A stretch of 64,000 nt of DNA from Antedon mediterranea (Eukaryota > Animalia > Echinodermata): NCBI RefSeq assembly GCF_964355755.1, contig NC_092672.1:21961237-22025236 (forward strand), written 5' to 3'. The position numbers and the translations under genes were made by a program. Positions 7,149-63,654 of this stretch are shown piece after piece; position 1 is the first letter of the stretch, and every line of letters starts with the position of its first letter. The notes beneath the pieces were generated by a model, which saw only the letters and a program-made list of their open reading frames with translations, was not told the origin of the DNA and did not search any database.

Positions 7149-7509
7149 TTTCTATTCTGGCTTGCTCCCTAGTTAGGACGAACATTTCTTTAGCCATAGT
7201 TTCCCCACAATTCTGGTCCAAATCATGACCCAATAACATGTCCCTCTGTAATCCTTCGATTACGGCTACAATCACTTTTCCTGTCACTATCTTACTTTCT
7301 ATAGCTACCTCAGCTAAGGGGACGGTAATATCGCCTCCTATACCTCTTAACGTAACCCATTTTCCTGGCAAGTAACATTTGTTAGGCACTAGACTTTCCT
7401 TAACAGCTGACTGGGTACATCCCGAGTCTCTAAGCATAGTTATATCCTGTCCTAATTTTCCTGGTATTGTACACTTCTCCATTTTATTTTCTACACTGAT
7501 TTTATTCCT
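7149..7509 (-). pseudogene. Aspartic protease domain
   Basis: LRDSGCTQS catalytic motif, LLGHD, and VLTREQAR linker; out of frame with both neighbours. Confidence 0.88.
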
Positions 7510-8700
7510 TCACATCTTAAGCCATCTTTCACATTCGGGCCCTTCTTAGTGTCACTAGTCTTTCCTTTTGCTACCATCTTAGGACAATCCCCTATTTTAT
7601 GTCCCTTCTCCTTACAATTAAAGCATAGGCCATTAATCCATTCATTTGAAGGTTCTCTCTGTTGGAAATTTCTACCATAGTTATGGAATTTGCCTCCCCT
7701 TCCGCGATACCTATTGTATCCTTGCTGCCTAGCTCCAGGGTTATTCTGAGTCGTACCATTCTTAGGTTTACTATTTTCTTGGCCCTTATAATACGTAGGC
7801 TTTTTTTCAGAATTTACGGCATTCCAATAGCCACGTCCACCTCTATTAGCTATATAATCATCGGCTATCATAGCCATATCATAGCTCTTATTTACTTGTT
7901 TATCTCTAAGATAAAGCCTCAGATCTTCAGGCATTTTATCAAGTGTCTGTTCCATTATAATTATTTCAATAATGCCTGCAGCATCATCTTCTTTTACATT
8001 AGCACATTTCATCCAACATTTTAAATAATGGGAGAGCTCATTCAGCCATTCCCTGATGGACATATCTTTAACTCTCTTTGAATTTCTAAATTTAAATCTG
8101 TAGGTCTCTGCGGACACATCATACTTTTCTAAGATTGCCTTCTTTAAGGTATCATAATCTACACATTCTTTTACGGTTAAGGATGCATATGCTGTCCTAG
8201 CTTTACCAGACAGTTCAGGTGCTAACCTAGCGGACCACGTATTCTTATCCCAACCTGTGGCTTCTGCCAAGTGTTCAAATGTTCTAAAATATATATCAAT
8301 ATCATCTGATTCCTTCAAAGTAGGAACCTTTACCTTCATTTCATCTACTATATTCCTAGCATTACTGTAGCTAGACCTATTTTCTAATTCCATCATTTTC
8401 ACTCTTTCTTGTGATTCAATTTTTCTTTTTTTTTTCTTGTTCTCAATCTGCTTCTAATCTTAATTGGTCTTGTTGTTATTGTAATTCTAACTTTTTGTTT
8501 TCGGCCTCGGCCTCGAACTTCATTCGAAAATATTTGAGCATCATATCTTTAGGCATACCGCCGGGTATTTCAGGCAAATCAATATCCCTAGCCATGTTAT
8601 CATACATTTCATTGACTTGGTCAACCATATCTTCCCTAGGCCTAGTATCTTTGTCTGACATAGTCTTATCTATATTTTTACCCGATCTTAAAGTTGTCAT
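7491..8700 (-). pseudogene. gag: Gag with SCAN-like capsid C-terminal domain and CCHC knuckle; N-terminal part has two stops and a frameshift
   Basis: YFRTFEHLA, ETYRFKFR, IIMEQTLDKMPEDLRLYL and CFNCKEKGHKIGDC; lesions at 8410-8480. Confidence 0.9.
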
Positions 8701-17015: not shown

Positions 17016-17679
17016 AACATATTAAAACAACTCAACTTGGTTATAAACATGTTAATCGAAAGGTATGGTGTAATAAGTAAATATAGTAAGGTAAATGTGA
17101 TGATAATACGATAAGAAATCAACTCGTTGTTAGTATTACCATGGAGAAATAAGTTAGGACTCCATGGTATTACTGAAGATGAGGTGTTAAATAATGATAT
17201 AATAATGTGAATAACTATAACGATCAAAGTAGCCGTGGCGGCGCAGCAAAAGGTTTGGTACATAAAGTAAACTGTCTTTAGAATTAATACTATTGTAAAA
17301 AGGGATGCACGGCTGGTTTGATCATTGTGGTACATGTATTTAAAACAAAAAATAACTCAATTCAAATCAAAAACAACATTAAACCTATATAATAAAATAA
17401 TAACTTACCGTCTGTTACGAATTACTGTATTACCTAATGAAATGAATACACCGGCGATTTCGAAATTAAGACGCACCAATGTTACGCTAAATATTAAGTT
17501 TGTGGAAGAGTAGAGAAGTCCAAATCCCGTCTCAATGCTAAATAGATGGTCTCAACTCTCGATTACAAATCCCACTAATCGATGGAATCATTAAACAAAT
17601 CCCGCCATGATATTGCTAAATGAATTCATGCTTAGCCGATGATAGGGACAAATCCCGTCTATCCTTATCCCGTCGTAGC

Positions 17680-25427: not shown

Positions 25428-26184
25428 TAAAGTTAAAATGTGTTTATCGTGGACGACGTGTGAATATGTTTTTGACCCGGGCTTCCTTGTCCTTTGTCAC
25501 TAATAATAGAGGCATATTTGCATATTTTAAAATAAATACGCAATAAAATTCATATAAATAAAAATTATATTATATAATATATATTTTATATTATTATATA
25601 TTAAAATGTATTTTATCTATTATTAAAATATTTCAAAAATAAGCTCAGATGCCGGTGGTGAGCAAAATATGCGCACTAAAAATAACTTTGGAAAACACCC
25701 ACCCTAGTTTCAAAACACGATCGCATGTCACGAGGTTAAAATAAACGCCGTGGTTAGGATTCCGACACCGGAACTCAACTGTCTACCGTTAGGGAATCCG
25801 ACACATTAAAGTTAAAATGTGTTTATCGTGGACGACGTGTGAATATGTTTTTGACCCGGGCTTCCTTGTCCTTTGTCACTAATAATAGAGGCATATTTGC
25901 ATAGTTTAAAATAAATACGCAATAAAATTCATATAAATAAAAATTATATTATATAATATATATTTTATATTATTATATATTAAAATGTATTTTATCGATT
26001 ATTAAAATATTTCAAAAATAAGCTCAGATGCCGGCGGTGAGCAAAATATGTGCACTAAAAATAACTTTGGAAAAAACCCACCCTAGTTTCAAAACACGAT
26101 CGCATGTCACGAGGTTAAAATAAACGCCGTGGTTAGGATTCCGACACCGGAACTCAACTGTCTACCGTTAGGGAATCTGACACG
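25428..26184. repeat. Near-identical tandem duplication with a 379-bp period, including the first ~60 bp of a MULE TIR
   Basis: TGTTTATCGTGGACGACG at 25441 and 25820; CGCCGTGGTTAGGATTCC at 25746 and 26125. Confidence 0.93.
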
Positions 26185-26541
26185 CTATTGCGCATGCCAA
26201 GAGCTCTGGGAAGTGAATTATAGCTTGTGCCACACACACACACCACACTACCACTGCTGCATGCTGAGAGTCGGAGTGTTAGGATTTACTGTAGCCTAGT
26301 TAGTCGTTGCGCGAGCAAGAGAGCGATGGATAAAACTTGGTCTAGGCCATACATGAATTAATAATTAAAATACGACTACGTCACGCCTTAAAATAATTAT
26401 TATGATATTAATAAGAATCAGTATCTATCTACCGTGAGAATCGTAATGCTTTAGTAGCGTTGCGACCCTGACTTCCCGAACAGTTTTTTCACATCCACGC
26501 GGTGGCTGCCGTCAACAAATTAACTTGTGATTGCATGTTAT

Positions 26542-28116
26542 CAAAGATAGTGTAGTAGGAAGATGTTACACTTCCTATTCGTTCAATGCAAATAAAAGCG
26601 AGACAACATGGAGCTAAATTTAAAGGCCGCCTCGCACGTTGAGTAGGGATACGGAAGGTTATTGTGGAAATAGGCTATATAACAGAAGAATAATATGACT
26701 GTAAAATTAAGATTTAATACGAATTAACATATAAAATGTACTGTTATCTTTATAGAAAGTGCAAATGAATCATATTTTTATGTTTTGGAATACAAATTTG
26801 TGTTTCAATTACCTGGAATTGTTTAGGTACCTGGAATTTCTACCATATTTTATTTCTTTTATTTTAATGTTTTTATTTGCAAATCAACTGAAATTTAAAA
26901 AAAATTATTATTTACATTTAATTGTTTATCATTGGACAGAGATTGACAATGTGTATGCCTATATAATAATTGATTACGTATGGTTTATTTCTAAATGGGT
27001 AATACAAGAGAATAGTAGTATGGCTTGTAATCAATCAATCAATCTTTATTGTAATAAATAATATTATACAAATAGTCGTCTATAAAAGGGGAAACATATA
27101 CAATGAATACGGTACCAGTAGGTCGCAACATTCAATAATAAGAATTTAGGACTACGGGTATGTTTTTTTTACTGAAAAAAAAAACAAGTATTGTTTTTTA
27201 TCTATTAATTTTAATAATTTAATAATAACTAATAATTATTATATTATGCTTGTAACACTCCGAACTTTGGTGCATTCTTAGTAATTTGCAATGATTATGT
27301 AATGCCTAACATTATCGATAATATTAATTATAAGCCGATGAGTTCATTAATATTGGTAAGGTATATCAAAGAAAAAAATATCCGTGGGGAGGCCTACTTT
27401 ACCCCCTTATACTACCCTTACAAAAAATGTTCTATAGAATCTATATATAGAAGTTTTAGAATTCTATATTAATCTATAGAAACAGATAATTTCTACCTAC
27501 CCCTAGAGTTTTTAGAAATTGCTGTATAGAAAATATTGAAATTGCAGAAGAATTGCTATCATTTATTTATAAATCATAATATTGTTTGCCAAACAATACT
27601 TATACTGTAAAATTTGCATTATGACTTCAGACTTGACTGGGGTTTACCAAGATGAGGAAGAGTTTTTATGGGTACGGGTTGGTTTGGGTACGGGTTGGTT
27701 TGGGTACGGGTTGGTTTGGGTACGGGTTGGTTTGGGTACGAGATGACCAGCATCCATTCATGATTGCGTCTACAGGCGCGCGTAAGCCTCCTCCTGATCC
27801 TAGCTCAGTGTTTACAGTCATGTCATTCCAAAACTCACTCCAAATAAATGTATTAACAATTAAAAAGATCCAAAAACAGTATGAAAACATCATATTAATT
27901 TTTAACTTTGTATAAAAAAAAAAAGAAAGAAGTTTGATGTTTTTTGTGGCTTATTTTTACAATTTATTGCCGAAAACACCATTTTCGTTGGGATTTGCCA
28001 TTGCGCTCCTCATGTTTCAGATTCGTCTATCCCTACTCGTTGTGAGAGGCGCCCTATCTCGAGCGGTTCTCTAATTTTTGAGCGAAGTGTAACATCTTCC
28101 TACTACACTATCTTTG
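26542..28116. mobile_element. P-like non-autonomous element
   Basis: Perfect 33-bp TIR CAAAGATAGTGTAGTAGGAAGATGTTACACTTC and 7-bp TSD ATGTTAT; the empty site is visible in the 57-kb MULE copy. Confidence 0.88.
27669..27740. repeat. 16-bp minisatellite (GGGTACGGGTTGGTTT), about 4.5 units
   Basis: Directly visible perfect tandem units. Confidence 0.95.
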
Positions 28117-28183
28117 ATGTTATGTACAGTTATAATGCGTTATATGAAATCTTTTATTTTGTACTTAAAAAATCATAAAACTA

Positions 28184-28979
28184 CCGTATATTTCGGTGTA
28201 TAAGTCGCACTTTTGACACGCAAATTTGACCTCTAAATTAAGGGTGCGTCTTATACACCGAACATAAATGCCTCACCACACAGATTGTACATATCTAGCT
28301 AAACTAGCTACAGTATACTAACACAACGGCAACCTGCTTCTGCCTAGTTTTTAAGGCATTTTAGATGATGTTATACTAAATATGATGAAAAGATTTGTTC
28401 ATTATGGAGCTGTTGTAGGCGCTCCGATAAAATTTCATTTGTAAACGTTTACGATTGGAATAGCCTAGGCTAGTATTTATTTATAGTTATACGCACGATT
28501 ACCGTACCCCCAGCGCAAGCCCTACTTGGCGGCCACATGGTGTACGGTATTAGACTAGTATATTCTCCAGGTAATTATAGCATGGACCTAGCGTACACAC
28601 TTCTCGGAAACATAGATACTAATCAAATACGATTGTCCGTGAAAACGTGCGCCCTTTCGAAATGATCGAGCGAGGCTAGCCCACACGTACGACGTACGTG
28701 TTACACACACGGTCATGCACTCGATGTTGCGGGTGCGAAACTCTTGAATAACAAGTTAGAAAGAACTTGTTGAGGCTGGGCGAGGCCGAGCCTAGGTAAG
28801 AAAAAACCTAAATAAAGGACAAAATATAACAAAATATATTATCACAATAATATTGATTACAATTTAAAAAAAAATTGTTTTGATGGAAATATAAGGTGCG
28901 TCTTATACATCGACGATATAAAAAATACCGATATTTTACTCTCAGTTAGGGCGTGCGTCTTATACACCAAAATATACGG
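28184..28979. mobile_element. Tc1/mariner (pogo/Tigger-like) MITE
   Basis: TIRs CCGTATATTTCGGTGTATAAGTCGCAC / GTGCGTCTTATACACCAAAATATACGG, TA on both sides, repeated internal GTGCGTCTTATACA motifs. Confidence 0.88.
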
Positions 28980-29204
28980 TAGTCAACTCATGTAATTATA
29001 CAATTCATAATTATATGAAGTTTATATATGAATGAAGCAACCACTTTTTAATTACAAAATAAATGTCGGATTCCCTAACGGTGGGCAGTTGAGTTCCGGT
29101 GGCGTAAAATAAAAGGTGATGCAATTATTTTGTTATCAATCAGGTTTTTTATTTATTTTATATTCCCCAAAATTTATTTTCTGCAATTAAAATTATAATT
29201 TTAA

Positions 29205-46859: not shown

Positions 46860-46991
46860 CTAACGAGAGTGCTTGGAATATTTAAATATTTTTTCTTCGT
46901 CGTTGTTGCAAGATTACTTTGAGTTGTCGTTGTTTGATACGTGAATGGAATTATGGCGAGACCTTCTCCGGGAAGAGCTACACCGATCAAA

Positions 46992-47804
46992 ATGGCCGCT
47001 AGAATGAATGAGGCACCACCTGTGGCGGCTGCTGTAAGTTTAAAATTGCCGCCATTTTGGCCGAATGACCCACTTATTTGGTTTGCGCAAGTGGAGGCTC
47101 AGTTTGTTACCAGAGGAATTACGGCTGAGGAAACAAAGTATTCGTATATAATTGCTTCTTTGCCGCCTAATATCGCACAGGAGGTTCGGGATTTATTGCT
47201 AAGCCCTCCATACCAGAGACCATATACCCATTTGAAATCGGAATTGGTTAAAAGGACATCCGTGTCGGAGCAAAAGCGTCTTCATCAGTTGTTAACAACG
47301 GAAGAATTAGGTGATCGCAAGCCTAGTCAGTTACTACGCAAGATGTACCAATTGCTGGGGGATCGTGATTTAGAGAAATCCATCCTGAAACAGTTGTTTG
47401 TGCAAAGATTGCCTACTAATGTTCAATTGATATTAGCGTCCACCCGTGAAGATATGGACCTTTCAGATCTGGCAGCGTTGGCCGATAAAATTTTGGAAGT
47501 TTCTCCACCACCACCTACTATTGCCACGACAATTAAGGATACGGGTGCACGCGCAACGTCAGACGAATTAAGAGAATTGAGAGCTGAGGTTAGTAAGTTG
47601 ACCAGCCTCGTTTCTTCCTTGGCGAAACAAGTCAGAGGCAGAAGCCGTAGTAAACAACGTGAAAGCCGAAAACGCTCGCCCTCTGCTACATCTAATGATG
47701 GTTTATGCTGGTATCATCATCGATATGGTAACAAGGCACATAAATGTAATTCACCATGCTCTTTTTCCTCACAGAAGGCGGGAAACGACCAAGCCAGCGA
47801 CTAG
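46992..47804 (+). CDS. gag: Gag, CsRn1 type
   Basis: [31 protein letters not shown] and [18 protein letters not shown] (CHCC) motifs. Confidence 0.94.
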
Positions 47805-47845
47805 AGACGGCGACAGCTGCTGGCGTTGGTGAAGGTAGTCGTCTA
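47780..47845 (+). promoter_or_regulatory. -1 ribosomal frameshift signal
   Basis: Slippery heptamer G GGA AAC in Gag phase (47780-47786) in the gag/pol overlap, followed by stem CCAAGCCAGC / GCTGGCGTTGG. Confidence 0.85.
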
Positions 47846-50800
47846 TTTTTTATTTCTGATCGTACTTCGGGACTTAGATTCTTAGTTGACACTGGAGTGG
47901 AGGTTAGCGTGTTACTTCCATCAATGACAGACAAGTTGCACCGGAAAACTGACTTTGTATTGCAAGCAGTAAACAAATCTACAATATCTACTTATGGGGA
48001 GCGTTCCTTAACAGTTGATTTTGGATTTCGACGCACGTATAGGTGGATATTTACTGTTGCTGATGTGCCTAATGCGATTATTGGGGCCGATTTTTTACGA
48101 CGTTTTGGTTTAATTGTGGACTTAAAAAATCGCCAACTTGTCGATGCTACTACTAGTATCAGTGTCAAGGGAATAGAATGTACCCTAGCATCACTTAGTC
48201 CGGTCTTTCCGACCCCAAAAGTAAATCCTCCTTTTCAGGAAATATTAAACAAATATAAAACGATTACCAAACCATGTTTTCGTAATGGAAGCGTGAAACA
48301 TAATGTTACACATCAGATAAATACAAATGGGCTGCCAGTTTGTGCCAGACCTCGCCGATTGTCTTCTGAGAAATTGAAAATTGCACGGGCTGAATGTGAT
48401 CATATGTTACAATTAGGAATTATACGGCCCTCAGATAGTAACTGGTCGTCGCCGCTACACATGGTGCCTAAAGGAACAACAGGTGATTGGAGGCCATGTG
48501 GGGACTACCGAGCGTTAAATAATGTGACTGTTCCAGATATGTACCCCATCCCTCACATTCATGACTTTACCGCGACTCTCTCGGGTTGCAAGATTTTTTC
48601 TAAGATAGATTTGGTACGTGCATATCATCAAATACCCGTCGAACCTAAAGACATTTCAAATACCGCTATTACTACGCTGTTTGGCATGTTCGAGTTCTTA
48701 AGAATGCCATTTGGTCTTCGAAATGCGGCACAGTCATTTCAGCGTTTTATTGACCAGGTGTTGCGGGGTATGAATTTCGTGTATGCTTACATTGATGACT
48801 TACTTATTGCCAGCATGGATACTGCTGAACATGAATTGCATCTTCAGGCACTTTTTAAACGTCTCGATGAATTTGGTATCATTGTTAATCCGTCCAAGTG
48901 TGTATGGGGTGTGTCTTCACTACAATTTTTAGGTCATCAAATTAACGAGTTTGGGATACAGCCATTGCGTTCCAAGGTTGAGGCAATTGAACAGTTTCCA
49001 GTACCAGATACTGTGCGTAAATTACGTGAGTTTCTGGGATTAATTAATTTCTACAGACGGTTTATACCTAGATGTTCGGATTTGATTCATCCATTAACTG
49101 ATTTACTTGTCGGTAAACCTAAAAAGGCGATTGAACTATCTCCGACGGAAATTGAATCGTTCAACAAGGTCAAGTATGCACTCGTCGAATCAACTCTTCT
49201 AGAACATCCACATCCTGACGCTGCATTGTGTTTAATGGTAGATGCGTCCAATTGCGCTGTAGGTGGTGTGTTGCAACAAATGGTAGCAGGGATTTGGCAT
49301 CCACTTGCATTTTTTTCCCGACGTCTAAATCCGGTGGAAAGGAGATATAGTACTTTTGGACGGGAATTACTAGCTACCTATCTTGCAGTTAAGCATTTTC
49401 GCCACGTTCTAGAAGCTAGAACATTTTATATCTTAACTGACCATAAACCTTTAACACACGCATTACGTTCCAGCGCAGATCGATATTCGCCGCGAGAGAT
49501 ACGTCACTTAGACTACGTCTCACAGTTTACCACGGACATTCGACACGTCAAGGGTAGCGAGAATACCGTAGCAGACGCACTGTCACGTATGGACTTGAAT
49601 GCAGTGTCAGCTTCATCGGAGCTTTCTATTGATTATGACGTCATGGCTAGGCACCAGCAAAAAGATGCGGAGTTGCTCGAACATCAGCATAAGTCTGTTT
49701 TCAAGTTGAGAGACGTACCGATAGCGACTAGCGGCGGTACTATTGTATGCGATGTCACCACTGGTAATCATAGACCATTCGTGCCCAAAGGTATGCGTAG
49801 GTTAGTGTTTGACTCTTTGCATTCACTTTCTCATCCAGGGATTCGAGCTTCACTAAAATTAATCGCTTCACGGTATGTTTGGCCTGGTATGAACAGTGAT
49901 GTGCGGACATGGGCTAAGTGTTGTTTAAAATGCCAGAAGAATAAGGTTCATCGCCACACTGTGACACCATTAGGTACGTTTGCGACGCCCGACATAAGAT
50001 TCGACCACGTCCACATAGACTTGGTAGGACCACTACCTGTATCGGATGGTTATACTTACCTACTCACATGTATCGATCGCTTTACAAGATGGCCAGAGGC
50101 CATATCAATCACCAATATTACCGCTGAAACTGTAGCCAAAGCGTTTGTCACTGTTTGGGTATCCAGATTCGGTGCGCCATCCACCATCACTACAGACCGT
50201 GGTCGTCAGTTCGATTCGGCACTATTCACCGCCCTATCTAACATGTTGGGCACAAAACGCATTCGAACAACATCTTACCATCCTATGTCAAATGGATTAG
50301 TTGAACGTTTTCACCGCCAATTAAAGGTTTCGCTTAAGGCTCAAGATGATCCTCAGAAGTGGAGTGAAACTTTACCTTTAGTTCTTCTGGGTCTCCGGAC
50401 AGCGGTCAAAGTTGATTTAGGCTGTTCTTCATCGGAACTGGTGTATGGAGCAACCCTGAAACTTCCAGGGCAGTTTGTCGCGCCTACTGATATCGCCTCA
50501 CATGAGCCTGCGAATTACGTACATAGATTGCAAAGACACATGCAGAATATTCGACCAGTGCCAACACGAGCGAATCAACGCACCGCACAAATCCACGATT
50601 TGCGTGAATGTACTCACGTGTTTGTTCGTTGCGATAGCGTAAACAAACCTCTTCAGTCTCCTTACAATGGGCCATTTAAAGTTTTAAACAGAACTGACAA
50701 ATACTTTGTTTTGAGCATCGCAGGTAAACATGAAACTGTTAGTTTGGACAGACTAAAAGTCGCCTATGTAAATAATGGTAAAGCTATTAACAACTTTCCA

Positions 50801-50935
50801 GAATCGTCAAGGCAACCGGAAGCAGGGCTTTCCCCAACCGCAAGTGCTATTCCAGTCGCACCTCCACCACGGCAAACGCGTAGCGGACGACATGTACACT
50901 GGCCACGTAAGCTTGCAGATTATGATTGCGGTTGA
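47786..50935 (+). CDS. pol: Pol polyprotein PR-RT-RH-IN, expressed via -1 frameshift
   Basis: [37 protein letters not shown] and YNGPF motifs; no stops. Confidence 0.96.
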
Positions 50936-51036: not shown

Positions 51037-51335
51037 TGTAGAGGCAATTTGCATATGTGTTAGCAGGTGTAACGAACGGTATGCAAACCTTTTTATTCTT
51101 TGTCTCTCTCTCAACTACCGACCGTCGAACAAGCAGGACGTATTTATTTTACTTACCGTTGTTTGTTAACACAAGGAACTTTGCGTATCCTGTACATGTA
51201 CAGAAGAAACCATTATTATTGGAATATATTATGTGTATATAATTACGGAGCCAAGTATAAGAAGTTACTAATGATATTTGAACCCAATGCATGCTCTCAC
51301 AACACAGTATAGTGGGTAAGTTGGATCTCACTAAA
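51037..51335 (+). repeat. 3' LTR (TG...AA)
   Basis: Ends CTCACTAAA, followed by TSD ATAC at 51336-51339. Confidence 0.96.
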
Positions 51336-52770
51336 ATACCAACGTCGTTTAGCTGAGATTGACCAACATGAGATCGGGAACCTAACTTTTTTATAAAACG
51401 AACCATTTTGTTTTGAGTCGTTTGTAATTTTGATTTTAAATTTTTATTTACCGTAGAAGACCATGAGCAAACCGAATAATCGAACATCGGTTGGATTAAA
51501 GCAAAACTAAGAATTTTGCGACAATGTGAATTAAGAAATGATGATTGTCGGTACAGAAATTTCAGTCTGCCGTTTGCTTTGTTTATAACAGAGCGGGCAA
51601 TGACGTCTCCTGATACATTTTGGTCAATCTCAATACCTAGATATTTGATAGATTTTGATCCATTTATAGTCGTTCCAAAGCAATCAATATAGAATTCGTT
51701 TACTTTGCTTAATCTACGTTTAGAACCAAACAGGATGCATTCGGTCTTACCCATATGAAGCGAAAGTTGATTGTCGATCAGCCAATTATTGCATGATATG
51801 AGATTGTTTTGGAGTTTAGATTGGATTGCGATTGGATCTTTATGGGAGTAAAAAATTGCACAATCGTCAGCGTACAAAACAACTTTACAATCACTTTCGA
51901 TACTAGATGGTAGGTCATTCACGTAAATAAGAAACAAGAGAGGACCCAAAAGGCTACCCTGGGGGACTCCACATCCAATCTCAATAGAGTTCGATTTGGT
52001 ACCTTTAATATCGACAATCTGATTTCGCCCAGACAGGTACGCTTGAAACCAACCGATAGACCGGCATCCTAGATACTTAAGTTTTTTACACAAAATATCA
52101 TGATTGACCGAGTCAAAGGCCTTTTGGACATCGAGTAAAACCATACCCGTAAATAAACCATTTGACATTTGAACTCTAATGTGATCTCTAAGATGGATAA
52201 GACATGTGTCGGTAGAAAATGATCTACGAAAACCGGATTGATGATCGAAGATAAGTTGATTCCTTTCAAGGTAATCGGAAACTTGTATATATACCACCTT
52301 CTCCAGAATTTTCGAAACTGAGGAGAGAATGCTTATAGGTCTGTAATTGTTAGCCTCAGTTCTGGAATTCTTTTTATGAAGGGGCGTGACTTTTGCGAGT
52401 TTAAAATCCGAGGGAATACGTTCGTATTTAATGGAAAGGTTAATTATATGTGTTATTGGTATTTTAATATTAGGAGCTCCGTCTCTAAAAAAATTTGCAG
52501 GAATCTGATCAAGGCCTACACTTTTAGATGGGTTGAGATTTCTCAATTCCTCTTCGATAAGGCTCTCGTCAATTTCTTCGAGAGAAAAACCAGAAACATG
52601 TTTGATTTTGCTATTATAGTAATTTTTAAAGGCATTCGAACCCACACTAAAAAGGTTACTGGGAGAAGGCAATTTCTTCATTAAATCGGAAGCAATATTT
52701 GCGAAGTATTTATTGAAATAATTTGAAACTTCGCTTTCATTATGGCAAAGATTCCCATTAACATCTAACG
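51336..52770 (-). pseudogene. LINE ORF2 reverse transcriptase segment
   Basis: NYRPISIL, QSGFR, DVQKAFD, GVPQGS, YADD and KYLG motifs; no endonuclease domain (5' truncated). Confidence 0.95.
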
Positions 52771-54440
52771 TGCAAAAAATACAATACAAAACTATGTTCT
52801 TGACTAAAAAATCAGTTTGATTAGCAATTTTGCTAAACAAAATTTTCAAATGAAATTTTTCCCTGCTATAGTACAGATCGTATTCGGCTTCACGTACTAG
52901 CCTAAATCATTTTTTTTATGGGTGAGAGCCATTCTGACTAGGGATTCCATGCCACAATGGATGGCTATGTTAAAACATGGGGCCTACGGGCCTAGCTAGC
53001 CTACTAAACGATTGGCCCATAAATAACAAAACTCAGTGGATTCCAAACCCATCCTATCAACCAAACTCAATAATAAACAATATAACCTAAAACGTTCTAC
53101 AAAATCGGCTGTAAATATTGAGGCAAAACAAGGTCCGATTGCCGTCCGCACGTATAGTGGCTCGATCGTCTAGTAGGCTTAAAATAGTTTACTCTCCTAA
53201 AAAGCGGAAGCTGCATCAAGCAAGTAGACCTAGTAGGAAGGAGACCTAGCCGATCCGGCCCAGTTAAAAATTGAGCTAGCTAGTGTAGTAGACCCTATGC
53301 GAATTGATACTACCAGTCCTTTTACTAGGCTACACTTGTTAAAATTAGCAATACTTATGTTTACAAATATTCCAACTCTCTCATTCGAGCTATATTATCT
53401 ATACCATTCAGGTAGGTCGAATCGACCTTCAATCAAATACTGTACATCGTTCATGTTGTGATTATAGACGGGGTATACTTGACCCGACCAGTTTGGTATT
53501 GTATACTGTATCTGCTTATCACGTGACGATGCCAGGAATGGGCAGAGAGCACGTTTATCGTCTCGCTCAGAAGGAATGTACAGACGTTACGCTTCATTGA
53601 TTTTTAAGGGTTTTTCCCTATTGTCAGTGCGAAAATCGGCAAACGTAAACTGAATCTCCAAATGATTTTACACAATTGTGATGAATTTTCATAGAAAATT
53701 GACATTATAATAGGGAAGACCGACTAAAATTACATCAGATAAGCATAATTTTACAAAAGTAATTGATATGGTTAATGATAACGAGTCGTCGGAAGATCGA
53801 CCATTTCACAAATTTTCCTATTCTGTAACAGTGTCATATCGCCGTAGCTTCACTTCACAGCCTTCATTCTGCTTCACCGCTCACTTTATAATAAGTGAAA
53901 CTTTTACCGTTCAAGAGACAAACAATTATATTTTATTTTTTACTATTCATTTTAAACCCGGAACCCCGCTTTAAAAGTAAATAATAGTCAACCAGAAATA
54001 AAACTTGGTTTACTAAAGCTTTGGTTGCCAACGCAATGTAGGCGCTACGCAAGTGAGTTGACCAATAACAAGCAACAGTTCCAATAATCCATCACATTGT
54101 GATTGGTCAATTTGCTTGATTTAATTTACAAAAAAATTGGATAGACTACAGACAAATGGACAGACTAAATGTTGGGACAAACAAACTTATTACATGCAAT
54201 TATTACTCAGTAATCACCTCTGTAGTCCCATGGGTACTCTTTTAAATAGTTATTGATTACAGTGCCTTAAAATATTCTTTAAATAATAATTGTGTAAATG
54301 AATTTGACCAGAACCTTTACCATGCCAATCCATATCAATACTTTGAGTTACAATTGTAGATAATATATTGATAATGATATTCATTTGTAGCTATACACTA
54401 GGCTTCATTATCTCTTAAGATTAATAGAGTATGCGTATTC

Positions 54441-56170
54441 AGCAGTATGATCATACCATACCTCCATGATCATACACACTGTTTATATTTTGTGTGGTGT
54501 AACGAGTACAGGGGTAGGCCTATAGCTACAGCAGTAGGTCATAATCACTGTTTATATTTTATGTGGTGTAGTAGGTACAGTGGTAGGCCTATACTACAGC
54601 AGTATGATCATAATTACTGTTTATATTTTATGTGGTGTAGTAGGTACAGTGGTAGGGGTTCCTATACTACAGCAGTATGATCATACTCACTGTTTATATT
54701 GTATGTGGTGTAGTAGGTATGTCACGATAAATATGGTCCGGGGCCAAAATCGGTCCGGCCGGACCAGTTTTGGCTCTAAAATTGTGGCCAAAAGCAGTCC
54801 GCCACTGCCAAAATCGGTCCGGGCTTTTCTTCTGTCGATTTTAATTGAATTACTAGGCCTATGATGCTGTTTTAAAGTTGTTTATGGTTAGAAAAATATC
54901 CCATGATATATATTAGTAAGTTATCTTGTCGGATAAATACTATAAATAAATCTTTTTTATCTAAAAACATGACTTAGGTGTTCACTCATATTTCGGCCTG
55001 CCACACACTCACATGAACGGGTATGAGACGCTGATATTGCCAGCTAGATTTTATTTATGATTGAGGCATTTTTCCTTCCTCAGCCTAATCAATATTGGAT
55101 AATTGTTTTATAATAATTGTATTGAATTGATATATTGATTGATTAACCATAAATAATTAATAAATTAAATTGTTTTTAACATCCATCATGGGGAAACGAA
55201 GATGTTAAAAAAGAAAAAAATGGATTAAAAACAGGCAGAGATACATATTGTATACAAAAAGCTTAACAATTAGTATTAATTATTGATGAGTTACTACTAG
55301 TACTAATAATGATAATAAAAAAAACAGGCTTAATTTATAATATTAAAATAACAAATAAATCCCCGTAGTTTTCAATAATGACTAATCATGGCCTTTTTTT
55401 TAATGATATATACATTATGACTCATTTTGCGCACCATATATTTGTAAGACCGGACCATATTTGGCGGCCAAAAACAGTCCTACTGCCCGGACCGATTTTA
55501 TCCAGGCCGGACCAGTTGTGGCGGCCAAAATTGGTCCGGCCGGACAGGTTTTGGCAGCCATAAATGGTCCCCCGGACTGATTTTGGCAGCCAAAACTGGT
55601 CCGCCGGACCGATTTTGGCCCGGACTGATTTTGGTGTGACAGGTACAGGGGTAGTCCTATACTACAGCAGTATGATCATACTCACTGTTTATATTTTATG
55701 TGGTGTAGTAGGTACAGTGGTAGGGGTTCCTATACTACAGCAGTATGGTCATAATCACTGTTTATATTTTGTGTGGTGTAGTAGGTACAGTGGTAGGGGT
55801 TCCTATACTACAGCAGTAGGTCATAATCACTGTTTATATTTTGTGTGGTGTAGTACGTACAGGGGTAGGCCTATAGCTACAGCAGTAGGTCATAATCACT
55901 GTTTATATTTTGGGTGGTGTAGTAGGTACAGGGGTAGGCCTATAGCTACTGCAGTATGATCATAATCACTGTTTATATTTTATGTGGTGTAGTAGGTACA
56001 GTGGTAGGGGTTCCTATACTACAGCAGTATGATCATACTCACTGTTTATATGTTATGTGGTGTAGTAGGTACAGTGGTAGGGGTTCCTATACTACAGCAG
56101 TATGGTCATAATCACTTATAGAGCTGGAAATCATTCAAATATACACACTGTTTATATTTTGTGGTGCAAT
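54441..56170. repeat. 58/59-bp minisatellite array, about 13 units, split by a MITE
   Basis: Unit CAGCAGTATGATCATA.TCACTGTTTATATTTT.TGTGGTGTAGTAGGTACAG.GGTAGG..CCTATACTA at 54441-54719 and 55642-56170. Confidence 0.95.
54720..55641. mobile_element. Ginger-like MITE
   Basis: TGTCAC...GTGACA ends, 4-bp TSD GGTA, subterminal CCGGACC/GGTCCGG/TTGGC..CCAAAA repeats. Confidence 0.8.
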
Positions 56171-57026
56171 GGGTACAGTAGTATGGCTGCATCAGTGTGA
56201 TCATACTCACGTAGGGCTGGAAATTAAAAGTATGGTAGTATATGTGACCTGTTTTTAGTCTAGTTGACAAAGTTATTGAACTTGATTCTTCATTATGTAA
56301 ACATTTAAATATTTGAATTAATACTAAAGATTTCTTAAAACAATAATTGCATTGCTCCGATACTATCAAGCAGTGATACGACCAGTTCTCGAATATGCCT
56401 GTGCTGTTTGGTCCCCGAGTTTATCTAAAGCACAATCTGACCGAATCGAACATGTCCAAAGAAGAGCGTGTAACATAATATACCCCGATGGTACCTCGTA
56501 TGCTGATACCCGCAGATACCTTAACATCATCACTCTATCTGAACGCCGCGAGAAGTTGTCAAGAAAATTCTTTGATAAAATGAAAAAAGAAGATCATATA
56601 TTATACTCTCTCTTACCTAAACCTCCCACACACAACCATCAGCTCCGACGCGTAGATCGTTCACCCTCTTTAAAGTCCGGACACAACTCACAAAAAACTT
56701 TCCACGGAGTTTTCAATGATTGGTGAATGATCATAAACTGAGTTATGATAAGCAAATTGTGAACCCTTTTTGGTTTGTGCATGGAGAAATCAGTTAGGAA
56801 GGAGTAACATCAAAGAATACATCAAACGAATAGGCCACCCCGCCGCTAATTGGATTATCTGACTGTTACGTTACATTTAATTGCCGTTGATCTGTCGCTT
56901 GTTAGATTTGAGCATGCGCATATCCATTGCTTTCCTGTGACGCGTCATCAAGCGAGACTCGTTGTTGTTGATGATCACACACACGCGGCGACCATACAGT
57001 ACACACACAGCAGAAGAATAATTATA

Positions 57027-57791
57027 CGCCGTGGTTAGGATTCCGGCACCGGAACTCAACTGGCCAGCGTTAGGGAATCCGACACGCTATTGCGCATGCC
57101 CAGAACGAGGTAATTGGCGACTCTATACTTATCATCAACAGTGATGGGTCATTTCATAGCTGCGCCACAGCGAAGAACTATAGCCTAGCCTAGATGCCTA
57201 CTGATACGGGATCCACTAATAGTAAATACTAGGCTAGGCCTACCAGTTAGACGTGACCAGTGGGCCTATTTATTTTGTAATTAAAAAGTGGTCGCTTCAT
57301 TCATATTTATAAACTTCATATATTTATGAATTATATAATTACATGACTAGTTTTATGATTTTTCATGTACAAAATAAAAGATTTCATATAACGCATTATA
57401 CTGTACATAACATGCAATAACAAGTTGATTTGTCGACGGCAGCCACCGCGTGGATGTGAAAAAACTGTTCGGGAAGTCGGGGTCGCAACGCTAAAAACAG
57501 CATTGTGATTCTTAGATAGGTACTGATACTTATTAATATCATAATAATATTTTAACGCGTGGCGTAGTCCTATTTTAATTATTAATTCATGTATGGCCTA
57601 GCTAGGCCAAGTTTCATCCATCGCTCGCGCTAGGCTACAGTAAATCTCGATAACACTCCGACTCTCGGTGCTGTGGTGTGTGGCACATTAAGCTATAATT
57701 CACTTCCCAGAGCTCTGGGCATGCGCAATAGCGTGTCGGATTCCCTAACGGTGGGCAGTTGAGTTCCGGTGCCGGAATCCTAACCACGGCG
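57027..57791. mobile_element. MULE-like MITE
   Basis: About 75-bp TIRs starting CGCCGTGGTTAGGATTCCGGCACC; perfect 9-bp TSD ATAATTATA. Confidence 0.92.
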
Positions 57792-57841
57792 ATAATTATA
57801 CCACATTCGATACATTTTATTTACGCGTTTTATTTATCATT

Positions 57842-60595
57842 ATGGATTTTTATGAATTGGAGGACGAATTGGAACCCGGAATTCTAGAGGAATTGAAGTT
57901 TGCCAGCGAACATGAAGACCTGGAAAATGGTATGCTAGGTTAAAACTAGGCATTGCATTTAAGTTTAGTAGCTAGGCTAGTAGGCCTAGTTACCTGAACC
58001 TCTTCTCTTTTAAAGTGGAGCTCCACCCAGAAAATTACTATTTTTCATACATTTCAACTATTATTTAAAAATATCATCCCTTATACTTCATATTTTTTTG
58101 AATTTTTTTTCAATGAGTACGATTTTCTTGAAAATCACGCCTTTTTGCGTTTTGGGGGGATACCTTGTAATTTCCTATTCTTTTACATGCAAAAGGGGGG
58201 TATATTTGAATAATCCTAAAAAATTCATTTCTTCACCAAAAAAAAAATGTAAAATGTATATTTATGTAATTTTTCCAGATCTTTCTATTTCTGGTATTTA
58301 TCACGTATACATTGCGCAATTTTGCGTAAATAGACACTTTCCCCCGTTCGGGTCCAATTGGGTTTTTTATTTTGCTAGGGAGTCCGATCACGTGACATTT
58401 TTTACAATCACACTACTGCAGCTGGCGATCTGTTATTTTGTCGCGATGTTATTTTTGACGGGCGAAAAGTATATTAAAACATTCTGAATGTGACCCTATT
58501 ATGTTTCACAGTGTAATAATGTGATTATGAGACTATTACTAAAATGTCAAATTTAACGAGATTTGAGAAAGATGTGGCTATATATTCAATAAAGCTAGGC
58601 CTAGGCCTACTACTAGAGTGTAGGTATGTACCGATGCTGCTTAGTGGCTTGGCCTCTAGCTAGGCTAGGCTGACAGCAGTGAAGTTTGTTTTGCTGTCAC
58701 CCGACCTTGGCCTACCCATGGGCCATGATAGGGTGCCTGGATAGTTGCTTTTCAGTCAGGTCTAAGCTTGCACATCGCTTTACTATTCTTTACTACTCTT
58801 GTTCTGTATAGGATTTTGTGTTTCACAATTCTTAATATGCGAGAAAACCCAGGAACGATAAATGGGGCGAAACGACCATGCCTCTAGACAAAAATTCAAG
58901 GCTAGCTAGGCTGAGCAGACAGCTTAGCTAGGCCTAGCCCTAGCTTAAAGTTAAAAGCAATCTGATAAGATTATAATGGCTAATGCTGTTGTTGTACAGT
59001 GAAAATCATGAGGTTACATGTAAATTATACTGACATTCTTATCGGAAATATTACTTAGGCCTAAACAAATCGTATTAATTGTGTGTATAAAATTTATTCC
59101 CCATTTTTCGACACATAATTTACCAAAGGGAAGAAATTTCCACAATGCGTTGACCAGCGACTAAAACGCGTCAGTCGCTAAGTGTAACGCGTTTCGCGAC
59201 GTATTGTAAACTAATAACCCCTAAGTTACTGAAAAACTGTAATTTGTTAAAAAACACTATTTTCTGACCGATTTTTTAGAAATGAGTTTTTGGAAAATAT
59301 TTCCATATTTTTCCTGGTTTTTTTTATGTAATCACTTTCAATTAAACATACTTAAACATAATATAAGCTGAGAAAGTCTGAGTGTAGCTCCACTTTAAAG
59401 AGGCCTCGTCTGCCCCGGCCCACTCTAGGCTGTCTACACGACCGAGTTGAATGTAACAACGATAATTCTGAATTCGGTCGTCCTCTGTAGGCTAGGTAGT
59501 ATTTTTGTAGTTTTTCTGTCTGTACGCCAAAAATTAGCCGCCCGATTTATTGATAGGTCTAGCTAGGCTAGGTAGGGCCCTATCTATCCATCTATAGGAG
59601 GCCTAGGCCTAATAGTAATATATCATTAATTTTATTGCACAATCATCAATAATGCATCATTCATATTATTATATTAATTATGAAGGCACGATTATCATCT
59701 GATGCAACCAACTCATCTATGACCTTGTCAAGACCTCAAACCATTAGTATTTACACAGGAGTCTGTATTTTTTAGATAAATTATTATTTTTCATTCTTAT
59801 AGGACAACATGAGTTAATTTTCAATTTTATTATGCTATTTAGGTATGGATGTTAGTGTAGGCATACATCCAACTACTATTACCGCAACCCATCAGAAGAA
59901 GGAAGTGTCAACAAACCCAGCCAAAAACCAATCAAGGAAAAAGAGTAAGGATTTTGAATGAATGATAACATTTTATTTTGAACATTTCATCTTTACTATA
60001 TTAAATGCATTCTCATCATTTATTAAAACTGTTGTATGCTCAATAATCTTTCTTTTCTGTATTTTCAGGATAATTCGGTACGTTGCCGGATATGTGCCTT
60101 ATGCGCTTGTGAAAAGATTTCAAAAGGGTAAAAGTAGTACTGCCAGAGCTTACTGTGATGTGCTCACTAAGTGGCAAGTGTGTAGTACCAACGTAACTCA
60201 TTCCTTCTACGACTATTCCAAAGAATGGATCGACAAACAAAATAGATCAGGCTTGTTTGTTGTTGATGACGATGTATATCTGTTTTTTTGGAAGCGTTGA
60301 AATAGAAATAAGGCAGCATTTAGCTACAGATAAACTTAATATGATGTTAAATAGTAACTATCTGGCTGATTTGTATGACCGTATTTTCAATAAGGAGAAT
60401 GTTCAAACTTTCTGGTGCAGAATAACCAGAGATAAACTAGGTGACAATGCTTCTGCTCAATTATTACAAATTGTAGTTAGATACTGGTTGAAAATCAGAG
60501 CTAATGCATTCCTCAAGGTATACTTGAATTTAAAGAAGGAAAGCGGCAAAGTTTCAAAAAAGGGTGAAAAATCTCTCAGAAAAGAATTGTTGTAA
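57842..60595 (+). pseudogene. Second gene of the P-like element, resembling the P-transposase C-terminal domain (exons 57842-57929, 59843-59944, 60069-60595; frameshifted)
   Basis: GT-AG exons; IIRYVAGYV...WIDKQNRSGL...LLQIVVRYWLKIR...KSLRKELL; extra T in the T-run near 60283-60289 and a phase break in exon 2. Confidence 0.7.
58014..59394. mobile_element. Kolobok-like MITE in intron 1 of the P-associated gene
   Basis: TIRs AGTGGAGCTCCACCCAG / CTGAGTGTAGCTCCACT with TTAA flanks. Confidence 0.85.
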
Positions 60596-60753
60596 TGTTG
60601 GCTCTAGTATGATTAAATATATACTGTTTTGTATTTTTTTGTGTGTGTGATGAAATAAATAACGACAATAGCTAAATTAAATCTCAATTGTATTTTCGTT
60701 GGTTCTGAAAAGAACCGTTTGGTTTGAAAAAGTTTGCTGATCATAAATATCAT

Positions 60754-61043
60754 TTATGCATTTGGTGTCTTCTTCCTTTGAAGAGGTGAGTCATCAATAG
60801 TTTGGTCAACAATTTGGCTGCGGCAGTTGCCTCTCCTGGATGCCTTGGAACAGTTCGCAGCTACATACAGTGCATGCATATTGTGGCCAAACTGCATTGA
60901 TGTTGGGTTTGTGTTACTTCCACCACATCCTCTCTGTTTACTGAAGTACCGTTCTAACGGATCTTGATTATACTTCGCACTTAGAACACACTCTACCCCT
61001 GGCAGGTCCAGTAATTTTTTAGTCAACTCTACAAACGAATTAA
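60754..61043 (-). pseudogene. Last exon of a P-element/THAP9-type transposase (RNase H catalytic E region)
   Basis: Acceptor CAG at 61046-61044; NSFVELTKKLL...LSAKYNQDPLERYFSKQRGCGGSNTNPT...RGNCR; upstream exons not found. Confidence 0.88.
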
Positions 61044-63654
61044 CTGTTGATGGCAAAGAATAAAAAATTAATATACTTATTATTAATTAATTAATATACT
61101 TTGTCACTCTTGTGATGTCAGAACTTTTGATTAATTATTAAACAAGTCAGCTGTAAAAAAAACCAAATGTCCTAGTAGTAGTACTATCTAGGCTATAGCT
61201 AACTAAAAATAAATACAGTACCTATTTTTTTTTATTGTTAATGTTGTTGAACATAGCCTAACCCAGTATAATTATGTCCTAGGCCTAGATAGTAGTATTG
61301 CTATTTTTGGCATACCCTAGGTGTGGTAGATTAACATTACCTCTATGATAAATAGTACATAGAACAATAGGTAGGTCTAGCCTAGTAGGACTAGACCCTA
61401 GCTATGAGTCGAGTACTTAGTCCTAGTACGTCTTTTACGACATTTCGCGTAGTGATTAGGATGGTGTCCTAGTACATAAGTTCATGCTCTTGGTTTATTG
61501 TGTCATGAAAATAAATAATATATAATTACATATTATAATTAACAACACAGCAAAGGAAAGTAGTAATATTTAATAATGTAATTGTTTTTAATCTTTCGAG
61601 GAAAAAATTCAGTGCACTCATAATTTTTCTCGCCGCGTGTAGGCCTACCACGTAAAGTCACGTTGTCCTCTCTCAGGACTAATTAATAGTAATAACATTC
61701 TTCGAATGAGGTTAAATAAATATTATTTTTTATTTACTAATCTTTTAATATCATATTTTATTGAATTTTACAATGTTAATACACAAAATATTTTACTAAA
61801 AAACGTGATTTTATGTAATTATTTTACCGAAAAATGGAGTAAGCCTACCTAGGCCTAGGCCTAGGCCCTAGTTGTTTATGTCATTTTTGGCTAAAAACGA
61901 TCACTTTCGGTGATGTTTTATATTTTGGAATCTACAAGCCAGATTTTCACAATTATTTCTTTCATTATAATATTTAATAATATATATACTAAAAACCATG
62001 ATATATAAACTTTTGAATGTACATCGATCCCTAATATAAATTGAACGAGCACCGGCGAAAGTTAGCATTTGGCGTTCCAAAAAAAATAACGTTTTTCTGG
62101 TGGCGGCTCAACTTGTCGGCGGCTCAACTTGGCCTAATCCAGTAGTAGCTGGCCTACGAAAGTAATTGTTTTATGGCTAATGTTAGTTATTATTTATTGG
62201 TTTAAGACCTAGCCTAAATTAAACATCGAAACAATAACTAGGCTTAGACCTAAGTAATACAACGATCGGTGGACCAAAATAACTACGACCGGTGGAACTA
62301 CCGAACTAACTCCGGCTATTCGGTTCGGCGGTCGGATAGATTCGATGCTTTTCAATTCGTTGTACGCCAGCCGGACACCATCGGAAAGTGTCATGCAACG
62401 CATCAAATGAAAGCTACAGCTTTCCTTTATTCATATAACTTAAAACTCCAGTACAAAGGGAAATTATTAAAATACGTGTTTGTTTCGTTGTTATATTCAA
62501 AATAATGGAATACTTACAATTGATGAAACAAGTAGTTATATTTGGTTGATTTTATTGATTTAATGACTGGTACGTTCGCAAAAAAATTCGGAATCCGAAT
62601 ACATAAAACACGCATGTGAATCCTTGCTGACAATTAACTGCGCATATGCAATGTGTTTTTTGTTCGTATTTATGTACTCCACTGTTAGTTAGAACGGGGA
62701 ATAGGGGTTGCTACTTAGCGGCGAGGAGCCTTGTGTGTAAGGAGATCGAACCGAGATAACACGGCGGGCGGTCGCAGTGCAATTTAATAGGAGTCATTTG
62801 ACCATGTAATGTGCTTAATTGGATTAAAATCCATGCATTACATCGATGTTACTCCTTCCTAACTGATTTCTCCATGGTTTGTGTTACTGGATGTACTATG
62901 ATGGCCATTGAAAGACTGATTTGTGGACTATGATATATTTTAGTATTACTTGTTTGGACTGTGTTATACTATGTTTTTTTTATATATATTTACTATTATA
63001 TTTATGTCAACTTCATCACTGTTTACTTGATGCAATAAAGGAAATAAATAATAATAATAATAATAATAATTGCAAATGAAAAGATGCTGATTTTTCTAAA
63101 TGTCAGGCCTTCTATCTGATGGTTTGTATCCTAATATAATTGTTTGGCGATTTTTTCAATTTCATTTTATAACTTGATACAACTAATTTCAACATTTGCT
63201 CTTCTAGTACTCCTTTTTAATTTTATCTGAATTGTTCACATTCCTCAAATATGTATCATGGATGTTCAAAGGAGACTTTAATACCATATAACCATAACAT
63301 CTTTATTATAGGCCTAATAGAGAGTTTGTTTACATTTAATTATCGTAGGAGGAGATAGGAAAATGCGAAGTGTCCTCGTATTATTGTCTGCAGGTATTTT
63401 TCAAATTGGACATCCATTAGACAGTGTATACCACGATCGGAAAACACCCCTATTTGGGGCAAATCGTTGAACCTAAATTCGTTTTAATCGTCAATAACTA
63501 ATTATCTAACTTAATTTAATTAGTAAACAGGGTTACATCAGGTGGTTAAAATCAGTACCGAAAGTACGAACCAACTTTACATACCATCGAGTAAACATTC
63601 TAGAAATAACGCGCGATTTACCGAATTTTGCCCTTACGTAAATTTATATATAGA

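What the first reader, a model, noticed from the sequence alone, without database searches (positions are those of the whole stretch)
56780..62876. P-like transposon whose transposase appears split into two convergent genes
Seen: within 32-bp TIRs and a 7-bp TSD, the minus-strand transposase exon stops about 70 aa after the QDPLERYF catalytic motif (stop at 60754). A separate plus-strand spliced gene ends 158 bp away (60595) and encodes RYVAGYV...WI...NRSGL...YWLKIR. Established: in canonical P/THAP9 transposases a YIAGY...RGGL-type domain follows the catalytic core in the same polypeptide, and Drosophila P has an 8-bp TSD. Inference: this lineage encodes the C-terminal domain as an independent subunit in tail-to-tail layout, reminiscent of two-gene ProtoRAG and Kolobok elements.
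Basis: partly seen in the sequence, partly recalled or inferred. Interest (0 to 1): 0.75.

Follow-up and report, generated by a model that had tools for sequence, protein, structure and literature searches.

The report
Two-gene P transposon, split transposase
This is a broken copy of an animal jumping-gene lineage whose cutting enzyme stops short of its usual DNA-contacting tail domain, while a second, facing gene in the same element encodes a protein predicted to fold like that tail, which likely acts as a separate subunit of the enzyme.

Summary
Confirmed: perfect 32-bp TIRs, a 7-bp TSD, a transposase exon ending 70 aa from QDPLE, and a convergent gene ending 158 bp away. The window copy is dead: about 2.8 kb of transposase and about 150 codons of gene 2 are missing, and gene 2 has a frameshift. 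The layout is not a local inversion. A 4380-bp contig from another organism label spans both genes in the same order, and 15 of 18 related metagenome families show a convergent transposase. The C-terminal half of a gene-2 homolog model matches the Drosophila P transposase CTD (rank 1 of 48,161 chains, Z 10.9). Gene 2 is more than a detached CTD: it adds a conserved helical domain of about 150 aa and sometimes a PHD finger, and it is under purifying selection. The closest full-length transposases (sea stars) carry a RAG1-type N-terminal zinc domain instead of THAP. A subunit role is inferred, not shown. The 7-bp TSD is known from Galileo and 1360. Ten literature searches found no description; Repbase was not searchable. 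This scan has noted the same architecture on other DNA (7 earlier findings).

The parts
56773..56779 (+). Left 7-bp target-site duplication GTTTGTG
   Evidence: empty-site joint in contigs
56780..56811 (+). Left terminal inverted repeat, 32 bp
57027..57791 (.). Nested MITE-like insert with 78-bp inverted repeats; outer limits uncertain
   Evidence: I1; relatives at 25737-29107; contigs skipping about 56960-57863
57842..57929 (+). Gene 2 exon 1 (ATG, acidic N-terminus; donor GT at 57930)
   Evidence: 58-62% identical to the N-termini of P0004 and P0008; splice site
58014..59394 (.). Nested non-autonomous element in intron 1, TTAA-flanked with AG...CT ends (Kolobok-like)
   Evidence: skipped in contigs of X1, X5, X7; ends; Kolobok features from PMC9587614
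59843..59944 (+). Gene 2 exon 2 (predicted; low-complexity basic linker; keeps phase 1)
   Evidence: AG/GT sites and phase; inferred, no homology hit
60069..60595 (+). Gene 2 last exon, remnant. About 150 codons of the helical domain are deleted after 60069, there is an extra T at 60283-60289, and the rest encodes the P-CTD-like half
   Evidence: homolog model matches 6p5a_B
60596..60753 (.). 158-bp spacer between the two stop codons
60754..61043 (-). Transposase last exon: QDPLE catalytic motif plus a short basic tail, no CTD
61162..61168 (.). Deletion point: a 4380-bp contig of run X5 carries 2761 further letters here, likely the transposase body
   Evidence: table 5
61419..62140 (.). Nested repeat insert, absent from the X5 contig
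   Evidence: table 5
62845..62876 (-). Right terminal inverted repeat, 32 bp
62877..62883 (+). Right 7-bp target-site duplication GTTTGTG
17140..17166 (.). 27-bp mini derivative of the same family with its own 7-bp TSD GTATTAC

Best explanation
This is a deleted, non-autonomous copy of a P-superfamily DNA transposon lineage with two convergent genes: gene 1 encodes a transposase that ends just after its RNase H core, and gene 2 encodes a separate protein whose C-terminal half is predicted to have the fold of the P transposase CTD and likely completes the transpososome in trans. Shown: the ends, the TSD, the layout across many families, the lack of a CTD in the transposase, the CTD-like fold of gene 2 and its purifying selection. 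Inferred: the CTD half docks between the RNase H and GTP-binding domains as in the fly complex and contacts transposon ends and target DNA with its basic last helix. Also inferred: the extra helical domain of about 150 aa holds gene 2 on the transposase in place of the covalent linker, and the variable N-terminal modules (acidic tract, PHD, C2H2) tune chromatin contact. This copy would move only with proteins supplied by intact copies, through its intact TIRs.
For: (1) Full-length transposases P0001 (864 aa) and P0002 (922 aa), 61-62% identical to the window exon, carry RNase H N, GBD and RNase H C domains and end 68-69 aa from QDPLE. Their profile aligns with 6p5a_A up to residue 563 of 569 with only about 30 positions left, and gene-2 profiles give no convincing hit in them (best whole-protein E 0.092 among 5 sequences). 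(2) A 72-aa piece of gene 2 finds 319 proteins; of the 149 examined, lengths are 84-535 aa and 0 match a transposase HMM. (3) The model of homolog P0016 (pLDDT 90.6) matches 6p5a_B at Z 10.9, rmsd 2.7, 115 of 118 residues, rank 1 of 48,161, next best 7.7. 6p5a_B is also the top PDB sequence hit, with both motifs colinear (E 0.098). PF12596 Tnp_P_element_C is the most frequent Pfam match, 11 of 110 members, all weak. (4) Of 31 metagenome loci, 21 have a convergent transposase, 2 a same-strand last exon and 8 none, 7 of these 8 with under 500 bp downstream; by family that is 15, 1 and 2 of 18. (5) L011 is a 4877-bp element with both ends, related CAT-starting TIRs and a 7-bp TSD. (6) A. planci LOC110988468 (transposase) and LOC110988470 (gene-2 homolog) both lie on a 398,091-bp contig. 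(7) A contig of run X5 bridges both gene ends and 2761 further letters; the extra T is absent in X5 and X8, and gene 2 continues past the deletion point in X5, X7 and X8. (8) Gene-2 dN/dS is 0.18-0.20 in the 4 of 6 pairs with finite dS, and the two genes co-diverge (Mantel rho 0.59, p 0.0003, 11 pairs). (9) In the fly structure the CTD hangs on a flexible disordered linker and packs against another subunit (PMC7776569), so a split there is structurally plausible.
Against: Z 10.9 is under the tool's own caution line of about 13 for helical bundles, Foldseek found no match at E <= 0.001, and the sequence hits are below threshold. The homology rests on several weak to moderate lines converging on a target named in advance. 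The fold was modelled on homolog P0016 (41-45% identical to the window pieces), not on the broken window gene. Co-divergence is expected from physical linkage alone, and the Patiria pair is only known to share a contig length. One family (L002/L003) has the last transposase exon on the same strand, and L018 of that family shows none in 1574 bp. Five of 16 loci have tails outside 70-77 aa (33, 59, 93, 159, 159; likely frameshifted). Only 150 of the 319 gene-2 hits were visible. The N-terminal half of gene 2 has no known counterpart in the P transposase.
Confidence: 0.72

Rival explanations
1. Gene 2 is a regulator or targeting factor rather than an obligatory subunit: the short transposase works alone using its conserved basic tail, and the CTD-fold protein binds ends or chromatin to restrain or steer it.
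For: Gene 2 carries variable chromatin-type modules (PHD-like in 6 of 149; C2H2 in 5 of 110) and a large domain with no P counterpart. The fly element makes a truncated repressor protein. The transposase tail is conserved and basic.
Against: The CTD makes many contacts with transposon and target DNA in the fly complex, and the transposase has no copy of it elsewhere. The gene has been kept beside the transposase in 15 of 18 families.
Confidence: 0.18
2. The two-gene state is ancestral and the single-chain fly-type transposase arose by fusion, so this is not a fission. This changes the history, not the mechanism.
For: The two-gene form is old and diverse: gene-2 homologs diverge to about 20-30% identity and occur in echinoderms and amphioxus. 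The fly CTD is joined only by a disordered linker.
Against: Single-chain forms are the described state in flies and vertebrates. No rooted tree could be built here because no canonical P sequence was available as a stored protein.
Confidence: 0.25
3. The two genes are joined by trans-splicing into one conventional transposase mRNA.
For: Opposite-strand trans-splicing exists in animals (Drosophila mod(mdg4); recalled, not from a call).
Against: The catalytic QDPLE, the tail and the stop lie in one exon, so splicing to gene 2 would drop the catalytic glutamate. Gene 2 has its own conserved start exon, and NCBI annotates standalone proteins for both genes.
Confidence: 0.03
4. The layout is a local inversion or assembly artefact of one ordinary P copy.
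For: The window copy is heavily rearranged, and L002/L003 show that copies can be rearranged near the last exon.
Against: The same layout appears in contigs of other organism labels and in 21 of 31 metagenome loci. Both genes have their own ends, and gene 2 has about 150 extra conserved residues.
Confidence: 0.01

Closest known systems
Drosophila melanogaster P element and its 751-aa transposase (PDB 6P5A/6PE2)
   Same: RNase H core split by a GTP-binding insertion (profile E 1.3e-17 to 6p5a_A); CTD fold present in the element; TIR of about 31-32 bp starting CAT.
   Different: The CTD is on a separate convergent gene with an added helical domain; the TSD is 7 bp rather than 8; the nearest full-length relatives have no THAP domain but a RAG1-type N-terminal zinc domain.
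Galileo and 1360 (Hoppel/ProtoP), P superfamily
   Same: 7-bp TSD (PMC3698922 passages); P-type transposase.
   Different: Described as intronless, with no second gene in the passages read; this lineage has introns and two genes. The phylogenetic relation was not tested.
ProtoRAG / RAGL transposons (RAG1L and RAG2L)
   Same: Two convergent genes inside TIRs (PMC7204232 abstract). The catalytic gene of the sea-star relatives begins with the RAG1 N-terminal zinc domain (motifs of PMC1131882; Atlas TM 0.70-0.75 to predicted RAG1 fragments). The second gene can carry an acidic tract and a PHD finger.
   Different: The catalytic core is P-type, not Transib/RAG1; the TSD is 7 bp versus 5 bp for Transib; the gene-2 core is all-helical and CTD-like, not a kelch propeller (the RAG2 propeller is recalled). 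The likeness is shared modules and layout, not membership.
Kolobok Kol0 (transposase plus KolX)
   Same: Two-protein DDE transposon; shares the C/DxxH signature group with P.
   Different: TTAA TSD; KolX has a cysteine-rich ballast fold and is an accessory protein, not a piece of the transposase.

Membership tests
P superfamily (broad) | TIRs with a 7- or 8-bp TSD | tested here: met
   32-bp TIR and 7-bp TSD; mini copy; L011; size range from PMC3698922
P superfamily (broad) | P-type DDE RNase H core with DxxH signature | tested here: met
   FDEMK, SDGA, DVPHL and QDPLE in P0001 and P0002; PF21787 and PF21789. The window copy retains only the QDPLE exon.
P superfamily (broad) | GTP-binding insertion domain | tested here: met
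   PF21788 at E 2e-14 and 8e-13 in the full-length relatives; deleted in the window copy
P superfamily (broad) | GTP-dependent cut-and-paste activity | not testable with these tools
   needs biochemistry
Canonical P element / THAP9 family | N-terminal THAP domain | tested here: not met
   no THAP match at E <= 1 in P0001 or P0002; a RAG1-type zinc domain is there instead. The N-terminus of the window's own family could not be read.
Canonical P element / THAP9 family | CTD in the same polypeptide as the catalytic core | tested here: not met
   stop 68-77 aa from QDxxE in the window, P0001, P0002 and 11 of 16 loci
Canonical P element / THAP9 family | 8-bp TSD | tested here: not met
   7 bp in three insertions
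Galileo / 1360 | Transposase groups with Galileo or 1360 in a tree | not tested
   no such sequences could be fetched
ProtoRAG / Transib | RAG1/Transib-type catalytic core | tested here: not met
   the core matches the P transposase; the only RAG1 hit is to the N-terminal domain
ProtoRAG / Transib | 5-bp TSD | tested here: not met
   7 bp here; 5 bp per PMC8355894
ProtoRAG / Transib | Second gene is RAG2-like (kelch propeller; fold recalled) | tested here: not met
   the model of the gene-2 core is all-helical and matches the P CTD
Kolobok | TTAA TSD and RR...YY ends | tested here: not met
   the host element has CA...TG ends and a 7-bp TSD; only the nested insert at 58014-59394 fits

The most novel reading that the evidence does not exclude
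A widespread animal lineage runs an obligate two-subunit P transposase built on the ProtoRAG plan. The catalytic subunit is headed by the RAG1-type zinc domain, and the convergently encoded partner supplies the DNA-binding CTD, a new helical docking domain and, in some families, an acidic tract and a PHD finger that steer insertion by reading chromatin. That would be an independent route to a RAG1/RAG2-like two-gene recombinase and a candidate carrier of the RAG1 N-terminal domain.
Probability: 0.25. Interest if true: 0.87.

Novelty: new variant of a known kind. Interest (0 to 1): 0.7.

Why it matters
P transposases are described as single polypeptides. A lineage that keeps the CTD as its own gene, across families about 25% identical, is a natural dissection of the enzyme. 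It makes the role of the CTD in end pairing and target capture directly testable, and it suggests a two-component transposase that is off until both parts are present, with a swappable targeting subunit. It also assigns a likely origin to hundreds of 'uncharacterized' invertebrate proteins, and it places the RAG1 N-terminal zinc domain on a P-type transposase in an element with a RAG-like two-gene layout, which bears on how RAG1 acquired that domain.

Tried and rejected
Complex prediction of the A. planci pair (P0002 400-922 with P0012 200-535) gave no verdict: score 0.00, alignments not used, partner fold uncertain; it is not counted for or against binding. No RNA holder was listed for the stretch, and run X13 (RNA is only a guess) had no cover over most of gene 2's last exon; neither says anything about expression. 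Word-indexed protein searches with the two gene-2 pieces for longer proteins found nothing (weak evidence). Foldseek against PDB gave no match at E <= 0.001. The full-length gene-2 profile gave only designed helical proteins in PDB. The Atlas gave nothing usable for P0016. The N-terminal helical half of gene 2 had no clear fold match (best Z 7.4), which does not show a new fold; it was not folded alone. Viral contigs held no relative. No whole genome is held for the window, so copy number and intact copies in this genome could not be counted; contig depths are not copy numbers. P0003 (4171 aa, repetitive) was dropped from the 150 gene-2 hits as spurious. Rejected: the 7-bp TSD as a novelty, a local inversion, and Kolobok or ProtoRAG membership. 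A rooted tree against canonical P, Galileo and THAP9 was not built, so the direction of the split is open.
Full report
Observation. The element runs from 56780 to 62876, with perfect 32-bp TIRs and a 7-bp duplication GTTTGTG, at the 3' side of a decayed LINE-like frame. Contigs from runs X1, X5 and X13 join the two flanks without it, so the insertion site is real. The TIR pattern occurs 3 times in the window against 0 in 100 shuffles; the third match is a 27-bp mini copy at 17140-17166 with its own 7-bp TSD. The minus-strand exon matches PF21789 and the end of fly P transposase chain A, and it stops 70 residues from the Q of QDPLE; the plus-strand gene stops 158 bp away.

State of this copy. 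It is dead. Only the last transposase exon remains: a 4380-bp contig of run X5 (organism B) covers the end of gene 2, the spacer and the transposase exon, then carries 2761 letters that the window lacks at 61162-61168. Gene 2 has a start exon at 57842-57929, a predicted exon at 59843-59944 and a last exon from 60069. Homologs have about 150 more conserved residues at that point. Contigs of X5, X7 and X8 leave the window sequence at 60069 on both sides, with letters that read in frame like the homologs (my reading of 30-letter loose ends). The extra T at 60283-60289 is absent in X5 and X8 but present in X1, which may be the window's own sample. Three nested repeats fill the rest.

The transposase lacks a CTD as a family trait. 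The two full-length relatives found, from Patiria miniata (864 aa) and Acanthaster planci (922 aa), are 61-62% identical to the window exon. They hold RNase H N, GTP-binding and RNase H C domains with the catalytic motifs intact, and they end 68-69 aa from QDPLE. Their profile aligns with 6p5a_A to residue 563 of 569, leaving about 30 positions, whereas the fly protein is 751 aa long. Gene-2 profiles find nothing convincing inside them. In metagenome loci the tail is 70-77 aa in 11 of 16; the other five are 33, 59, 93, 159 and 159 and are likely frameshifted.

Gene 2 is a standalone family. A 72-aa piece retrieves 319 proteins at E <= 0.001, of which 150 were listed. After dropping one repetitive 4171-aa hit, the 149 are 84-535 aa long and none matches a transposase HMM; Pfam found no RNase H or GBD family in the 93 scanned. 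Named members come from crinoids, sea stars, sea urchins and amphioxus. The closest (69-75% on the piece) are from the crinoid Anneissia, so the host is likely an echinoderm (inference). Of 64 apparently complete members, 50 have 120 or more residues before the CTD-like part. PHD-like fingers occur in 6 of 149.

Its C-terminal half looks like the P CTD. The AlphaFold model of homolog P0016 is confident (pLDDT 90.6) and all-helical. Against 48,161 solved chains the best match is 6p5a_B, the fly CTD: Z 10.9, rmsd 2.7, 115 of 118 residues, model range 153-319; the next row has Z 7.7. A profile of the C-terminal half also ranks 6p5a_B first among 177,635 PDB sequences, with the YxAGY and GGL motifs colinear (E 0.098), and PF12596 is the commonest weak Pfam match (11 of 110). 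Against this, Foldseek found nothing, and Z under about 13 can be reached by helical bundles. I accept the homology because three methods point to the one target named in advance. The N-terminal helical half has no clear match.

The layout is conserved. Of 31 metagenome loci found with gene 2, 21 have a transposase on the opposite strand just downstream. Of these, 17 were found by tblastn with P0002 alone, 19 at a looser cut-off, and 21 with an HMM partly built from these loci. Two have the last exon on the same strand, and 8 show none, 7 of them with under 500 bp downstream. Grouped at 80% identity this is 15, 1 and 2 of 18 families. The same-strand family is internally inconsistent: L005 and L018 diverge from L002 and L003 at that junction, so it is likely a rearranged copy. 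L011 is a 4877-bp element with both ends, CAT-starting TIRs and a 7-bp TSD. Gene 2 is under purifying selection (dN/dS 0.18-0.20 in 4 pairs, 2 more saturated; transposase 0.10). The two genes co-diverge (rho 0.59, 11 pairs), which linkage alone could explain.

Mechanism. [quoted passage not shown] The simplest reading is that the gene-2 protein fills that place in trans and that its extra helical domain replaces the linker as the means of attachment. These steps are inferred. I put the two-gene architecture at about 0.95 and the subunit role at about 0.7; a purely regulatory role is the main rival. Whether the state arose by fission or is ancestral was not tested.

The sea-star transposases have no THAP domain. 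P0002 carries the first RAG1 N-terminal motif given by Kapitonov and Jurka 2005 exactly and the second with two conservative changes (PMC1131882 passages). The profile weakly hits a solved RAG1 N-terminal chain (E 0.48). The Atlas places P0002 residues 55-160 with RAG1_imp_bd clusters (feature score 0.95; TM 0.70-0.75 to predicted RAG1 fragments) and shows a 59-member, mostly echinoderm cluster with this domain plus P domains. With a convergent partner that can carry an acidic tract and a PHD finger, some members resemble ProtoRAG in plan while using a P core. The metagenome transposases L006 and L008 start differently, and the N-terminus of the window's own family could not be read, so this holds for the nearest relatives only.

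Known or new. It works like a P element and meets the broad P-superfamily tests, but it fails three features of the canonical P/THAP9 family and is neither ProtoRAG nor Kolobok. The 7-bp TSD is shared with Galileo and 1360 (PMC3698922 passages). Ten full-text searches listed no paper whose title or abstract start describes a two-gene P element. I read passages only of PMC7776569, PMC1131882, PMC3698922, PMC7204232, PMC8355894, PMC10824691 and PMC9587614, and no supplements. Repbase Reports, Dfam and subscription journals are not held and could contain a prior annotation. Earlier notes of this scan report the same architecture in other genomes (seen after my reading was formed); they are not independent support.

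Verdict. A real, likely undescribed variant of the P superfamily, seen here in a decayed copy. Interest 0.70.

Noticed in passing
window 58014-59394: Non-autonomous element with TTAA flanks and AG...CT ends, Kolobok-like, nested in intron 1 of gene 2 and skipped in contigs of three runs.
   Followed up: partly
window 57027-57791 and 25737-29107: MITE-like family with 78-bp inverted repeats, several related pieces in the window.
   Followed up: no
window 17140-17166: A 27-bp derivative made almost only of TIR sequence, with a clean 7-bp TSD; possibly a very small mobilized unit or a deletion relic.
   Followed up: partly
L002:2408-2800 and L003:2793-3176: The last transposase exon lies on the same strand just after gene 2, with a splice acceptor; L005 and L018 of the same family diverge at that junction.
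   Followed up: partly
P0001 and P0002, first 160 residues (relatives, not in the window): P-type transposases headed by a RAG1-type N-terminal zinc domain instead of THAP.
   Followed up: yes
window 4114-8453 (-), 46938-50932 (+), 51152-52906 (-), 56328-56726 (+): Two Gypsy-like gag/pol regions, a LINE reverse-transcriptase frame and a LINE 3' fragment, judged by eye from translations.
   Followed up: no
window 55589-56210 and 1954-2289: Minisatellite arrays: about 70-73-bp units near the element and a repeat-coded frame near the window start.
   Followed up: no
window 59650-61410 versus runs X5, X7, X8: Runs under two other organism labels hold the coding region with few differences from the window; these could be close relatives or recent transfer, not resolved.
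   Followed up: no
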